Position numbers: made by a program
Shown: positions 10,501 to 40,500 of the stretch, piece by piece
Position numbering within the stretch: position 1 is the stretch's first letter
Layout of the letters: each line of letters starts with the position of its first letter
Assembly: GCF_037042905.1 (NCBI RefSeq)
Contig: NC_087261.1
Span: 8,246,001-8,310,000 of the forward strand
Length of the DNA: 64,000 nucleotides
Direction: 5' to 3'
Source of the DNA: Lytechinus pictus
Lineage: Eukaryota

Positions 10501-13500
10501 TGAATATTAGATGTTTCTCGAGTTTAAAAGAGCTCATCCTAAGCTTCAAAATGTTATAACTTGTCTAAATTGATTAACAATAATCCACACAAGTACTTGA
10601 TTAAATGCAGAAGAAACTAAGCAAAAACTTTTGTAAAAATAGGAAAAAACGTTTGAAGTTTGGGGTCACTCAAGCATAAGATGAGCTTACTTTCAATCCT
10701 CCAAGCAGTCCGCAATAAACTTATGTTAAAGAAACTCTTATATCTTGTTTTTAATTTAATTTTACAATTTGAAATTTTAATAGTATCAAGAGAAAGAATA
10801 ACACTTTACGATAAGTTTTAAGTTATTTTCTTCTTTTTTTCCTGCTTTTGGAAGACTAAATTATAATTTTGGCTATTTAAGTTATTTTCTTCTTTTTTTC
10901 CTGCTTTTGGAGGACTAAATTATAATTTTGGCTATGTATAGGAAACCTACTTGGGCGACCTCTTCTTGGCTTTGGGGTGGATGGTCACATATGTGCTAGT
11001 CTTGCATGATGACCAATCTCTTGATTAAAGTTTCAATCACCTCAAATGTCTTGCTGCCCTAAAACTTCTAAAGCTATTTCTTACAAAATTATCTTGTTCT
11101 TGTACGAGTTTACTGCAAGAGCTGCTGTGCAATAGTTTGACATCTCAATGTCACTCCATGCCATTTCATTTATTAACGTTTCATTTCGTTTACTTCCACT
11201 TCCATCAGTAATGACATGCCGGATACATTGTACAAAGTAAAATGAAGTAACTCAATGAAGTAAATGTAAGTATGATTCATTCAGTGTGCAACAGATTCTA
11301 GAAAAAAATGTAATGAGTTTGACTCACATCTTCTGGCAAAAACTATTTGGCACTCAACATTTCAAAAATTTGAATACTCCACAAATTTTTCTAAAAGATG
11401 CGTCCCGTCTCTGCAAGAAAATTGATGATGCATAACCAAATATTTTTGCTTTTTGGACAAGGCTTTAAATTTTTTGGGGTTGTGTAATTTTTATGATACG
11501 AAAATTCATAAACACACATTACCATATTAAACTCATAATAATGCCACTTACATGTATATTCATTAATATACATAATTGCAACTATACATGAATCATCCCT
11601 GACATATGTACATTATAACCTTATATAGTATTAAGAGTACCAAAATTGAGGTATACTTGAAAATAAACACACATATAACTAGCCCTGCTCCAAAAGGTAC
11701 GACTTTAGTTTTCTTATTTTACAGAGAATAAAGCAGTTGTTTGCCTTATTTTCTTGAGGCAGCTACCACAAATTGATATAAGAACTTGCATAGCTACACA
11801 GCTTTCCTAATATAAAGGTTAGCCCATTTTTTCATCCACAAATTGGCAACTATTATTAATTTTCAAGTTATTCTCATACTTGGAAAGAAAAATCAGCAAG
11901 GACATCAAACATGTTGAAATCAATGATAAAAGGAGACTTCAACGAAAAGTTGCCAATTTGCATTTTGAACAGTGATTTTGTTGTTTTCATCACATTGCCA
12001 ATTTAGTGAGTGTAATGATTAGATAGACCTTTATACAGAAATGGGAAATGTACTGCACCGGAAATGGTTCCATTTTTTTTTTTGGGGGGGGGAGGGGGCT
12101 TAATTTTTCTATTTCAAATCATATTCCATGTGTAATTTCTAGAGTTCAGATGAAGAAATATTGCAAAAGTGTCTCCTGAAAATTATAGCTGCCATCTAAA
12201 TGACTGCTCCACAATGATTCGAGCCAGTGTGGGACATTTGGTGACACAACACTATCAGGACATGTGTACAGAGAATCTGCAGGAGAAGACAATGTACCCC
12301 TAGGGGTTGAAATTCAGGTTCAACCTTGTGTATGGGTCTGGTCCCGAACTGAACAGTTAGCTATCACTCACTGGATTTAGTACCCTTTGAAACCAAGCTT
12401 AAACCAACGATGCCCTGCAGATATCGGTGATAATGATTATAAAATGAATACTCAACCACCACCATGTGACTTCTGTCATGCCCTGTACGGACCTAAGTTC
12501 CCATGATTCCATCATTTAATATCATAAGATCGAGAGAGAGTTCGTAGGGATTGGCAAGGATGAGCTTGGCAACGTCTGTATGATTCATTTCAAGGACATC
12601 GGTGCCGTTCACAGCAGCAAGGTATTCCTTAACCTTAAACAAAAGAGAAAGACATAAAACAATGAGACTAATATACACAATATAAAGAAATTAATAAAAT
12701 GATAATGATCATAATAATAATGATTATAAAAATAATATTATTATTTCTTTATTATAATAATAATATAATCAATAACAACAATAATAATACTTGTTTAAAT
12801 AGTTCTTCAGACATCTTTAAAGACTCTTTATAAGAAGTCTCTAAGCATAATTACCCTGGCTTTAGCAGAGCTACTGTTACATGCTCTGCCTGTAACAGCA
12901 GCTTTGGATCGAGTGTAGCACAATGTGGATCAATTTCTTGCTGAAGGAAACTCGGGCATGATCATCTACACGTACTGAAAGTGCAGCTTGGGAAAAGGGG
13001 TTTCCCCCGTTTGTACCACAAGACCAAACCCTAGGTAATCTCCTATAAATGTCAATGTACCATCCTCGAACTCCTCAGGGTTTACTGTTTGTACATAGTT
13101 TGGAGCGTCTCCTTGAATCACAAGACCACATCCAACAGAGTCTCCTACAAATGACAATGTAAACATCTTACCTTTAACGCTGCTGCAGCAGCTGGTCCTT
13201 CAGGGTCTACTGTCTTTAGGTAGGTGGGACAATCTCCTTGTATCACAAAAGTAAACCCAACTGAATCTCCTACAAATGACAATGTAATATCTTACCTGTA
13301 ACCCTTCAGCTGCACCTTCAGGATCTACCGTCTGTATGTAGGTGGGACCGTCTCCTCGTATCACAAAAGTAAACCCAACTGAATCTCCTACAAAAGACAA
13401 TGTAATATCTTACCTTTAAGCCTGCTGCTGCAGCTGGACCTTCAGGGTCTACTGTCTGTACGTAGGTTGGACCGCCTCCTCGTATCACAAGACCAAAGCC

Positions 13501-37500: not shown

Positions 37501-40500
37501 GAAGGAGGTCAAACATCATCTTGATGCCTTGGAGAATCCTCGAATCATTGTATCAAGGAGTCACTCTGGCAAGGTTGAGGAAGTCTCGAAGAAGACCTTT
37601 GGTGAGAGTACTAAGGTCAAACCCGCTGGAGGAGCAGGTAGGTTTGTTGTAACTCTGTTATTAAGTTTGGTACATTGTTAGAATCATATCAAGCAGTCAC
37701 TCTGTCAAGTCTTGAAGAATTCTCGAAGAAGACCTTTGGTGAGAGTACTAAAGTTGAACCCGCTGGAGGAGCAGGTAGGTTTGTCTTTTGAAATCTGTTG
37801 GATTTGTCTTCTGATCTCTGTTAACTTTGGTACATTGTTAGAATCTGCAGTATAAGGAGTCACTCTGGCAAGGAGTCTCGAATAAGACTTTTGGTGAGAG
37901 TATTTAGGTCAATCCAGCTGGAGGGGCAGGTAGGTTTGTCTTTTATAACTCTGTTAACTTTGGAACATTGATAGAATCTGTAGTATAAGGAGTCACTCTG
38001 GCAAGGAGTCTCGAAGAAGACTTTTGGTGAGAGTATTTAGGTCAATCCAGCTGGAGGGGCAGGTAGGTTTGACTTAACTCTGTTAAGTTTGGTACATTGT
38101 TAGAATAGTTGTAATAAGGATCTCTGGCAAGGTTGAAAAAGTCTTGAAGAAGACTTCTGATGAGAGTACTAACGTTAAACCAGCTCTTAACTTACTGTTA
38201 ACTTTGGTACATTGTTAGAATAGTTGTATCAAAGAGTCAGTCTGGCAAGGTTGACAAAGTCATGGTTTCAAAATGAATTCAGTAATGGAAGATTTATTTG
38301 ACATCTGCTTTCACATACCAAGAAATTATGTGATAGTGGCCCTCTAATGTCTTTTAACTATCATCGCTTACTCTAGTTTTCAAAGGGATGTCACTTCTGG
38401 AAAATGAATCGGACATTGACATCCATATGTAACTCATTACAAAATGCTCTGATTGGACCCCATCCATTTGTATATTTCAAAATCACTTTTGCTGCACAAA
38501 GGTTCAAATATGAAGTGACTACTAAAAAAAATTAATCGGACATGTACCATCATTATACCAAGTAAAAATGACCCTTCTCCAATTTCCCTAATCATTGCTT
38601 ACTCCAGGCTTCAAAGTGATGTCCCTCCTTGAAGATGAATCTGACATCTACATCCATGTGACACTCATCAAGAAATGGGATATCTGTGCAGGCAATGCCA
38701 TCCTAACGGAGATGAAATCTAAGATGACCACATTGAAAGGAGATACGATAAAATATGACAGGACAGATGACGTCAAGAACCCCGACGGCCTCCTAGCCAC
38801 AGTCTGGGACCACAACGTCTTTTTCGCAAAGCTTCAACCGGTTTATGAAGATCTAAAGGCAGAACAGAAACCAAAGCAATAACGTTTGCATATAGACCCA
38901 TCTAGTAAAAGTCATATTTTTGTGTCTGAATTGAAATTTATTGTGCTGACTGTGAGATCGATGCAATGTTATGTGACAGCGAGAAGCTTGAAGCACTACA
39001 CTCCCAACATCATAACTTCAAGTTGATATAAATGAATAGGGAAATTTTTAGCATTGACAATTTGAGCTAAACCTGATGTAAAGTATGGGGGCATCGTGGT
39101 CTAGTGGTTAAGACTCTCATCTTTCAATCTGAGGGTCTTGGGTTCGATTCCCAGCCATGGCATGTTTTCCTCCAGCAAGAAATTTAACCACATTTTGCTG
39201 CACTCAACCCAGGTGGGGTAAATGGGTACCGGCAGAAAGTAATTCCTCAAAAAGCTGTGAGCACTGGAATCGGTAGACTAGCTTAGCCTGGGTAATATAG
39301 GAGTGCCTTGAGCACCTAGCATGGTGGATACGTGCGCTATACAAATCCTATATTCTTATTATTTGTATTATTAAGCCTTTTTAATATTTTATTTTCTATT
39401 TTATTTAGTTTCACACATTAAAGATAGAAAAAGTGAGGAGTGTGTGGCTTCTTCTTCAGCTTCTTTACATCAGATTTGTTTGAAATGTTGCCTTTTGCTG
39501 ATTTTATTTCCTCTAATTATTTATATCAACTTATTGTTGGGGTGAATTTTCAAACAACTTGTTTTAGCGCAGGTCCCTGTGGTAACGATATAGCCACATG
39601 AATATATGTTCTTCAGTCCATTAAACCACTGAACATGATTTTAAAAATTAGACTTACAAATGTATAATCAAGTATGGTGGTGCTGCCATCATTGTTCAGT
39701 ACTCTGATACAATAAAACTTGTTATTATTGCCTAGTTAAGTGTTTCTGTTACAAGCCATGGAATCGGTATTTATTTGCTGAGAGCATACTGTCATGATTG
39801 TTGATAACAAGCTTTATACATTATGACTCATTGGTTTTCAGGCTATGAATACATTCTCCTATTTACCTATTCAAAATGTGAGACTGCATTGATTCATGGG
39901 GACTGCTTCATAAAATTGTGAGTCTGTTCAACATTGTGCAACAGACTGTTTTATGAAACTCCACTTTGTCAAAAGTTATACACTGCATTTGCTAACATCA
40001 AAGTGTACAGAGATTGATGTTATGGTTCACAAATATATATTTATTCATGAAAAAGAAAATATTTTAGAGGGGGCAACAACTTATGGTCTTTTATGAAGTA
40101 GTTACATGTAGGAAATCATGTTGGCTATTATTTGTGTACTTTGTAATCTACCTGGTAGTCCTTCTTAAAGTCATTTACACAGAGCTTTTAGAAGCAGGAT
40201 CTATTGCTACATGTAGGATGATAAAATCTTATACCAGTATTACCAATTTTCCTTTTTTTTTGCCATAATCATCTTTTTCAATTATCTAGAGGAGCATGCA
40301 TAGGACCTGCATAGCTATTCGATATGCAATACTGAAAAATTGCATATCAAATTATAAAGTTGGAAGTTGCTAGATGCTGTAGAAGTTGGTCATTTATGGA
40401 AACGTGATTTTATCATCCAACTTGCAATAATCTTGTGTTATTGAATCATTGGAATCCTCTTTTTTTATATGTAATGCTAATTGTTCAAAACTTTTTTTAA

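What the first reader, a model, noticed from the sequence alone, without database searches (positions are those of the whole stretch)
13005..38262. Recurrent pattern: three exons in two genes duplicate exon end plus 5' splice site into the downstream intron
Seen: DEPTOR exon 8, DEPTOR exon 5 (17011 versus 17132) and BPNT2 exon 4 all show the same geometry. The unit is about 120-155 bp, spans the donor, omits the acceptor, and the intact exon is transcriptionally first. That is 3 of the 12 coding-exon donors in the window. Inference: either selection tolerates only this class of exon-overlapping tandem duplication (the first donor still yields normal mRNA), or a mutational process is focused on donor sites with a roughly nucleosome-scale unit. 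Either way it is a route to new introns or alternative exons.
Basis: partly seen in the sequence, partly recalled or inferred. Interest (0 to 1): 0.65.

Follow-up and report, generated by a model that had tools for sequence, protein, structure and literature searches.

The report
Exon-boundary tandem repeats in sea urchin
Two sea-urchin genes carry short tandem repeat arrays that copy an exon edge together with its splice signal into the neighbouring intron, a kind of repeat already described in lancelets under the name "mirages" and probably harmless.

Summary
The duplications are real. Three of 12 coding-exon donors are copied, with exon tail, into the downstream intron: DEPTOR-like exon 8, DEPTOR-like exon 5 and BPNT2-like exon 4. 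The window comes from a Lytechinus-like sea urchin and is not human.

- The true BPNT2 exon 4 ends at 37637. The piece ending at 37774 is already copy 1 of five.
- The exon 5 copy is not strictly tandem. A 47-nt unrelated spacer separates it from the exon.
- A weak fourth donor case sits at DEPTOR exon 3.
- "Intact exon first" follows from geometry and is not an independent observation.

Local direct repeats are common here: 8-17% of 121-nt tiles have one. Enrichment at donors is therefore only suggestive, P = 0.006-0.01 on a founding-unit null and 0.07-0.27 on a coverage null. Donor versus acceptor is 3:1 (p = 0.63).

Every read-through towards a copied donor meets a stop codon. The idea of mutually exclusive exons fails. 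The closest precedent is the amphioxus "mirage": minisatellite-like tandem duplications of exon-intron boundaries on either side that do not disturb splicing. I rate this a new member of a known kind, of modest interest.

The parts
12493..23531 (-). DEPTOR-like gene, 9 coding exons: E1 23437-23531, E2 22358-22533, E3 19577-19697, E4 18612-18681, E5 17139-17253, E6 16327-16521, E7 15583-15788, E8 13414-13518, E9 12493-12633 including the stop.
   Evidence: Pfam DEP, DEP and weak PDZ_6. Exon-by-exon tblastn with L. pictus P0001 gives 92-100% identity per exon. Splice sites read.
13414..13518 (-). Authentic DEPTOR-like exon 8, 105 nt, the first half of the PDZ domain. Acceptor ACAG|ATT, donor AAG|GTAAGA.
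13011..13413 (-). Array of exon-8 copies inside intron 8: c2 13296-13394, c3 13172-13276, c4 13074-13151, c5 about 13011-13049 (partial). The unit is exon positions about 2-105 plus 18-19 nt of intron. c2 and c3 keep an AG|GTAAGA donor; c4 has lost it.
   Evidence: TRF period 118, 3.6 copies. Self-blastn. Alignment A1. Identities to E8 are 85, 84, 78 and 61%. Donors.
17139..17253 (-). Authentic DEPTOR-like exon 5 (second DEP domain). Donor ATG|GTAAGC.
   Evidence: Pfam DEP E 3.8e-8.
17011..17083 (-). Copy of the last 66 nt or so of exon 5 plus 7-8 nt of intron. It has an intact ATG|GTAAGC donor (last exon-like base 17018) and a 4-nt insertion that shifts the frame. A 47-nt unrelated spacer (17084-17131) separates it from the exon.
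19394..19545 (-). Weak, decayed repeats of the exon-3 tail plus donor (AACAATATTCCAYAG|GTA) and of the first 30 nt or so of intron 3.
   Evidence: Two hits at E 1e-3. Sequence read. Against 2000 shuffles, 0 reached the observed score for the first piece (19380-19460) and 8 for the second (19470-19545).
28267..38882 (+). BPNT2-like (inositol monophosphatase 3-like) gene, 5 coding exons: E1 28267-28617, E2 31630-31795, E3 35772-35876, E4 37464-37637, E5 38608-38882.
   Evidence: Pfam Inositol_P pieces. tblastn with L. pictus P0003 gives 92-99% identity per exon. Splice sites.
37681..38264 (+). Array of five copies (u1-u5) of the last 95 nt or so of exon 4 plus about 43 nt of intron. Intact CAG|GTAGGT donors sit after 37774, 37929 and 38062. 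u2 and u3 have an in-frame TAG. u4 and u5 have lost the donor.
   Evidence: TRF period 133. Self-blastn E 3e-133. Alignment A2. Identity matrix with u2-u3 at 95%. Donors.
38263..38447 (+). Acceptor-side copies of the exon-5 boundary. One is an exon-5-like piece at 38263-38306 without an acceptor. The other (a1, about 38318-38447) copies about 60 nt of intron 3' end with an intact CTCTAG acceptor (AG at 38375-38376) plus about 70 nt of exon-5 start, ending in an in-frame TAA.
   Evidence: Alignment A3. Junction search: 80.8%, E 2.6e-17. 0 of 2000 shuffles for either piece. Read-through.

Best explanation
These are "mirage"-type minisatellites. A short DNA segment of about 75-140 bp that straddles an exon-intron boundary was duplicated in tandem at the DNA level, most likely by replication slippage or an end-joining error at short repeats. 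It was then amplified and partly homogenised by unequal exchange within the array.

The unit lacks the opposite splice site, so the copies are not recognised as exons. The outermost authentic donor, or for the acceptor-side case the innermost authentic acceptor, still yields the normal mRNA. The arrays therefore persist as nearly neutral intron filler and decay.

**Shown:**
- The repeats, their boundaries and their direct, local arrangement.
- Intact copied splice signals in 6 of 10 donor-side copies and in 1 acceptor-side copy.
- Stops in every read-through.
- The most similar units are internal and the most diverged are terminal.

**Inferred:** the mutational mechanism, neutrality, and the claim that normal splicing is undisturbed.
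For: - The copies are direct, local and lie only in the adjoining intron. No inverted or distant copy of any exon exists in the window.
- Units cross the boundary and omit the other splice site.
- Both sides of one intron are affected.
- Internal units are the most alike (c2-c3 88%, u2-u3 95%). Terminal units are the most diverged (c5 54-61%, u5 56-62%). This is the same turnover pattern reported for amphioxus mirages (PMC3087553, passages).
- The copies are decaying. u2 and u3 carry an in-frame TAG; the E5 copy has a 4-nt insertion; c4, u4 and u5 have lost the donor; c2 and c3 replace the PDZ GFGL loop by GFTF.
- Read-through from each real exon meets a stop before the first copied donor, with the stop codon ending at 13318, 17095 and 37681.
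- The L. pictus protein models are colinear with the first, intact copies.
- Short repeats sit at the unit ends: ATTGT at the exon-8 start and at intron +13, and CATTGT at both ends of the BPNT2 unit (read).
- The window is rich in local direct repeats generally: 114 of 1057 tiles.
- Published precedent exists in lancelet genes. Units of 10-160 bp occur at either boundary, many keep AG/GT, and splicing is normal by RT-PCR (PMC3087553 and PMC3902484, passages read).
Against: - On a founding-unit null, 3 of 12 donors is more than expected (0.44 expected; P = 0.0105 Poisson, 0.006 by simulation). Pure randomness of where duplications arise or survive is therefore not secure.
- dN/dS among the exon-8 copies is 0.20-0.47, below the 1.0 expected for two freely decaying copies. 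The counts are small (12-24 differences). About 0.5 is expected whenever one partner is the constrained exon or a later snapshot of it.
- Copied donors are almost unchanged at -3..+6, with 1 difference in 54 positions among the 6 copies that keep them. Three or four further copies lost the donor outright, though.
- The exon-5 copy is not head-to-tail (47-nt spacer).
- No RNA or population data were available, so normal splicing and copy-number instability remain untested.
Confidence: 0.75

Rival explanations
1. A mutational process is focused on exon-intron junctions, for example breaks or template switching tied to transcription or splicing, to chromatin at exon ends, or to a sequence motif. 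Under this view boundaries are hit more often than other DNA.
For: - The founding-unit null gives 0.44 donors expected against 3 seen (P = 0.006-0.01), and 0.89 junctions expected against 4 seen (P = 0.013). A weak fourth donor case exists.
- The three units are of similar size: 118-125, 121 and 133-139 nt.
- The exon-8 unit starts within 1-2 nt of the exon's first base.
- Both multi-copy arrays carry the same 8-mer, TACATTGT, near the 3' end of the unit. The window has 18 matches against 5.0 expected, and 7 of the 18 lie in these two arrays.
Against: - The coverage null gives P = 0.07-0.27.
- This is one window, chosen post hoc.
- The constrained exon copy decays more slowly, which alone lengthens detectability up to about two-fold.
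- The apparent whole-exon unit for exon 5 failed its test. 1520 of 2000 shuffles scored as high.
- The shared 8-mer was found post hoc and is common in this AT-rich DNA.
- Other arrays in the window have periods of 59-380 nt.
Confidence: 0.12
2. The copied splice sites are functional decoys. They would bind U1 or U2AF and tune splicing of the authentic exon, or divert part of the transcripts into stop-containing isoforms as a form of regulation.
For: - Six copied donors are identical or nearly identical to their parents at -3..+6, and the copied acceptor keeps its pyrimidine-rich CTTACTCTAG.
- All extensions would carry a premature stop.
- The 19 nt after the donor are 17-18 of 19 identical among E8, c2 and c3, against 84-88% in the exon-like part.
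Against: - Other blocks of the units are equally invariant, for example TTTGGTGAGAGTA in E4 and u1-u3.
- Three or four copies lost the donor by deletion.
- There are no expression data.
- In amphioxus such repeats were reported not to give aberrant mRNAs (PMC3087553 and PMC3902484, passages).
Confidence: 0.08
3. The exon-8 copies form a cluster of mutually exclusive alternative PDZ exons.
For: c2, c3 and c4 keep the reading frame open. c2 (99 nt) and c3 (105 nt) keep a length divisible by three and a GTAAGA donor. dN/dS is 0.2-0.47.
Against: - Exon 7 ends in phase 0. The only AG before each copy (TTTGTAG|GA) gives an immediate stop, and no AG precedes the in-frame start.
- The spacer between copies is only about 25 nt.
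- The conserved Gly of the PDZ carboxylate-binding loop is lost in c2 and c3 (GFTF). The motif role is recalled, not tested.
- An open frame is kept by chance in 56-63% of simulated copies.
- No database protein carries the c3 variant (weak evidence).
Confidence: 0.03
4. Assembly artefact, such as collapsed or mis-joined haplotypes.
For: Sea-urchin genomes are highly heterozygous (recalled). No read data were available.
Against: The copies differ by 5-45% and by several indels, far more than alleles would. The periods are only 118-139 nt. No N lies nearby; the only N run is at 5350-5677.
Confidence: 0.02

Closest known systems
"Mirages": minisatellite-like tandem duplications of exon-intron boundaries in amphioxus genes (Adh3, globins BflGb6 and BflGb9, troponin C, PGBD5)
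   Same: Tandem units straddle a splice junction. Either the 5' or the 3' boundary can be hit. Units run from tens to about 160 bp. Many but not all units keep AG/GT. Internal units are homogenised and edge units diverged. The authentic site lies at the outer edge. (PMC3087553 and PMC3902484, passages read.)
   Different: The host is an echinoid, not a cephalochordate. My searches found the term used only for lancelets. The units here are more diverged (54-95%) than the 81-100% reported for BflGb6. One case (exon 5) is a single copy with a spacer. Copy-number instability and normal splicing were shown there but could not be tested here. The original Adh3 paper (PMC117041) is not held, and the supplements of PMC3087553 could not be seen.
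Tandem exon duplication found by comparing exons with adjacent introns (Letunic et al. 2002, as described in PMC9013439); source of mutually exclusive exons
   Same: Exon-derived sequence lies in the neighbouring intron in the same orientation. The exon-8 copies cover nearly the whole exon and keep the frame.
   Different: The copies lack an acceptor and cannot be spliced in frame. The other two cases copy only part of an exon and are broken.
Intron gain by tandem genomic duplication of an AGGT-containing exonic segment (Rogers model; Hellsten et al. 2011, PMC3265369 abstract; reviews PMC3443670 and PMC2891723, passages)
   Same: An intragenic tandem duplication duplicates a splice signal. Stop-containing by-products may be tolerated.
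   Different: No new intron is made here. A pre-existing intron is lengthened: 403 of 780 nt of DEPTOR intron 8 and about 767 of 970 nt of BPNT2 intron 4 are boundary-derived. Gao and Lynch 2009 (PMC2791625) is not held, so I cite it only from recall and from others' reference lists.

Membership tests
Mirage-type boundary minisatellite | Head-to-tail tandem repeats adjoining the parent sequence | tested here: met
   Met for the exon-8 array (period 118-125) and the BPNT2 exon-4 array (133-139). For exon 5 it is inconclusive: a single copy lies behind a 47-nt unrelated spacer.
Mirage-type boundary minisatellite | Unit spans an exon-intron boundary | tested here: met
   Alignments A1-A4, with exon coordinates.
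Mirage-type boundary minisatellite | Many but not all units keep GT/AG signals | tested here: met
   6 of 10 donor-side copies keep a donor matching the parent. 1 of 2 acceptor-side copies keeps the AG.
Mirage-type boundary minisatellite | Either the 5' or the 3' exon boundary can be duplicated | tested here: met
   3 (perhaps 4) of 12 donors and 1 of 12 acceptors.
Mirage-type boundary minisatellite | Internal units homogenised, edge units diverged | tested here: met
   c2-c3 88% and u2-u3 95%; c5 and u5 54-62%.
Mirage-type boundary minisatellite | Regular splicing not disturbed | not testable with these tools
   No RNA data. The only indirect evidence is that the L. pictus protein models are colinear with the intact first copies.
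Mirage-type boundary minisatellite | Copy number unstable between haplotypes or in soma | not testable with these tools
   Only one haplotype was available.
Mutually exclusive exon cluster | Each copy has its own acceptor and donor in the right phase | tested here: not met
   No in-frame AG precedes any exon-8 copy. Exon 7 ends in phase 0.
Mutually exclusive exon cluster | Open frame and conserved key residues in every copy | tested here: not met
   The frame is open in c2-c4, but GFGL becomes GFTF or GCGL. The BPNT2 copies carry a TAG and the exon-5 copy is frameshifted.
[quoted passage not shown] | The duplication lies within an exon and the stretch between the two AGGT becomes a new intron | tested here: not met
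   The units cross an existing donor or acceptor and only lengthen the existing intron.

The most novel reading that the evidence does not exclude
Exon-intron junctions in this genome may be preferred sites, or strongly preferred survivors, of roughly 120-140-bp tandem duplication, perhaps guided by a short motif near the donor. TACATTGT sits at the unit's 3' end in both multi-copy arrays. If so, introns would grow from their own boundaries and come to carry arrays of intact decoy splice sites that can modulate splicing. The phenomenon would then be shared by echinoderms and cephalochordates and so be old in deuterostomes.
Probability: 0.12. Interest if true: 0.65.

Novelty: new member of a known kind. 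Interest (0 to 1): 0.3.

Why it matters
If boundary-spanning minisatellites are common in sea urchins as well as lancelets, three consequences follow:
- They are a general source of intron growth. Here half to four-fifths of two introns is boundary-derived.
- They are a source of cryptic splice sites.
- They are a trap for gene predictors.

On the evidence of this one window they look like tolerated by-products rather than a new mechanism.

Tried and rejected
- **Six-frame Pfam scan.** I replaced it with stop-free ORF references. In one search I scanned 150 of the 257 remaining ORFs of 50 aa or more and none matched. The other 107 were not scanned.
- **"The exon-5 unit is the whole exon plus 7 nt" (114 + 7 = 121).** Rejected. 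The spacer does not resemble the exon's 5' half (score 12; 1520 of 2000 shuffles as high). It does not resemble the intron after the copy either (616 of 2000), and it has no other source in the window.
- **Mutually exclusive exons.** Rejected on phase and acceptor grounds.
- **An origin from circular or back-spliced RNA** for the exon-8 unit, which starts at the exon's first base. Considered, but only one case fits and nothing tests it.
- **Selective conservation of the copied donors.** Not supported once the copies that lost the donor are counted.
- **Search for a protein carrying the c3 variant.** One search was too short. It was lengthened, which gave 17 candidates and none at E <= 10. This is weak evidence.
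- **Rfam.** Only a tRNA-like hit at 39090-39162 and nothing in the arrays.
- **Papers not held.** Gao and Lynch 2009 and Canestro et al. 2002.
- **Structure, complex and atlas tools** were not needed.

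
Full report
**What the window is.** The 64-kb window has about 35% G+C and one N run at 5350-5677, which I left untouched.

Pfam on stop-free ORFs finds two DEP pieces and a weak PDZ piece on the minus strand and four Inositol_P pieces on the plus strand. Searching single exons, never a joined model, gave two closest named proteins:
- Lytechinus pictus "DEP domain-containing mTOR-interacting protein-like" (P0001, 407 aa).
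- L. pictus "inositol monophosphatase 3-like" (P0003, 356 aa).

The window is therefore from a Lytechinus-like sea urchin and I do not take it for human.

Local tblastn of these two proteins, read exon by exon together with the splice sites, gives 9 coding exons for the DEPTOR-like gene (minus strand, 23531 down to 12493) and 5 for the BPNT2-like gene (plus strand, 28267-38882). That makes 12 donors and 12 acceptors. 150 of the 257 other ORFs of 50 aa or more had no Pfam match, so I see no further recognisable gene, though short exons would escape this test.

**The observation.** All three duplications exist.

- *DEPTOR-like exon 8* (13414-13518, encoding IVGDSVGFGLVIRGGG...AAAAGLK). Four further copies follow in intron 8: c2 13296-13394, c3 13172-13276, c4 13074-13151 and a partial c5 near 13011-13049. 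The unit is exon position about 2 to 105 plus 18-19 nt of intron, and the period is 118-125 nt.
- *DEPTOR-like exon 5* (17139-17253). Its last 66 nt or so plus 7-8 intron nt are copied at 17011-17083, at 86% identity. This copy is not head-to-tail. The 47 nt between it and the exon resemble neither the exon's 5' half, nor the intron behind the copy, nor anything else in the window.
- *BPNT2-like exon 4.* The exon ends at 37637 (...GGAGCAG|GTAGGT), so the piece that ends at 37774 is already the first of five copies, u1-u5, running from 37681 to 38264. The unit is about 95 exon nt plus about 43 intron nt, and the period is 133-139 nt.

- Intron 4 of the BPNT2-like gene also holds acceptor-side copies of exon 5. 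38360-38437 matches 38591-38668 at 80.8% (E 2.6e-17) and includes an intact CTTACTCTAG acceptor. A further exon-5-like piece lies at 38263-38306.
- A weak fourth donor case exists at exon 3. The motif AACAATATTCCAYAG|GTA and the first 30 intron nt recur within 200 nt.
- Boundary-derived DNA makes up 403 of 780 nt of DEPTOR intron 8, about 767 of 970 nt of BPNT2 intron 4, and 73 of 617 nt of DEPTOR intron 5.

**Is the pattern more than chance?** The similarities themselves are (E 1e-17 to 1e-133). The recurrence is less clear. "Intact exon first" is forced by geometry.

In a uniform test of all 24 junction windows, 3 donors had strong local duplicates, 1 donor had weak ones, and 1 acceptor had a strong one. 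The same test on tiles across the whole window is positive for:

| Threshold | Tiles positive |
|---|---|
| E <= 1e-6 | 114 of 1057 (10.8%) |
| E <= 1e-10 to E <= 0.01 | 8.4-17.3% of 845 |

Local direct repeats are therefore common here. Two nulls give different answers:
- *Coverage null.* 3 of 12 donors gives P = 0.07-0.27.
- *Founding-unit null.* This asks where a unit would have to arise. It used 12 arrays with summed units of 2200 nt; one unit length was guessed, and some arrays are probably transposon copies. It gives 0.44 donors expected against 3 seen (P = 0.0105 Poisson, 0.006 by simulation).

Donor versus acceptor is 3:1 (p = 0.625). The window was chosen post hoc, and the constrained exon copy decays more slowly than a neutral one. 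I therefore call the enrichment suggestive only.

**What the copies can do.**
- Six copied donors match their parents at -3..+6, with one difference in total. c4, u4 and u5 have lost the donor.
- Read-through from each real exon meets a stop before the first copied donor. The copied acceptor leads into 17 codons and a TAA. Any use of the copies would give stop-containing transcripts.
- The exon-8 copies keep an open frame and show dN/dS of 0.20-0.47. This does not make them alternative exons, for four reasons. Exon 7 ends in phase 0 and no in-frame AG precedes any copy. An open frame survives by chance in 56-63% of simulations. About 0.5 is the expected ratio when one partner is the constrained exon. 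And c2 and c3 have changed the PDZ GFGL loop to GFTF.
- No database protein carries the c3 variant (weak evidence).

**Comparison with what is known.** Tandem repeats that span an exon-intron boundary have been described in amphioxus as "mirages", in Adh3, the globins BflGb6 and BflGb9, troponin C and PGBD5. The reported features are:
- units of 10-160 bp;
- either boundary can be duplicated;
- many but not all units contain AG/GT;
- regular splicing is retained by RT-PCR;
- copy number differs between haplotypes;
- internal units are homogenised and edge units are excluded from homogenisation.

These come from passages read in PMC3087553 and PMC3902484. That paper's supplements and the original Adh3 paper could not be seen.

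The arrays here meet every sequence-level feature, including the homogenisation pattern (c2-c3 88%, u2-u3 95%, terminal units 54-62%). Splicing and instability could not be tested. My literature searches found the term only for lancelets, so an echinoid example appears to be new. Related but distinct ideas are tandem exon duplication found by exon-versus-intron searches (PMC9013439, passages) and intron gain by duplication of an AGGT segment (PMC3443670 and PMC2891723, passages; PMC3265369, abstract).

**Verdict.** The finding is a new member of a known kind and of modest interest.

One small unexplained lead remains. Both multi-copy arrays carry TACATTGT near the 3' end of the unit.

Noticed in passing
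window 13154-13161, 13279-13286, 13397-13404 (minus strand); 37671-37678, 37831-37838, 38093-38100, 38208-38215 (plus strand): The same 8-mer, TACATTGT, lies in transcript sense near the 3' end of the repeat unit in both multi-copy arrays, 11-34 nt after the donor. The window holds 18 matches against 5.0 expected from shuffles, and 7 of the 18 lie in these arrays. This was found post hoc.
   Followed up: partly
window 39090-39162 (+): A tRNA-like element lies about 210 nt after the BPNT2-like stop codon. Rfam tRNA scores 35.5 bits. ARAGORN calls it tRNA-??? with a 4-base anticodon. It abuts an inverted-repeat pair, 39139-39361 and 41384-41611, so it may be the head of a tRNA-derived mobile element.
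   Followed up: partly
window 24096-24251/24525-24683; 32095-32292/32490-32687; 7530-7678/7904-8047; 61405-61606/61799-62000; 57383-57528/57896-58053; 18408-18563 versus 19787-19945 and 20039-20192: Many inverted pairs of 150-200 nt at 76-84% identity, a few hundred nt apart. They look like small terminal-inverted-repeat elements. Some of the "direct arrays" used in my null are probably copies of these.
   Followed up: no
window 48516-49798 and 1920-2543: A satellite with a base period of about 106-113 nt and a higher-order period of 332-343 nt (88% between higher-order copies). An array of about 111-nt period also lies near the window start. I did not check whether the two belong to one family.
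   Followed up: no
window 20933-22118: A 221-nt repeat in 4.6 copies inside DEPTOR-like intron 2, ending about 240 nt from the exon-2 donor. It shows no exon similarity.
   Followed up: partly
window 23531-28267: The DEPTOR-like and BPNT2-like genes are head to head, with start codons 4.7 kb apart. A 380-nt direct repeat (27208-27516 and 27588-27894) lies between them.
   Followed up: no
window 30620-30721: A CCTCTT-type microsatellite inside BPNT2-like intron 1.
   Followed up: no
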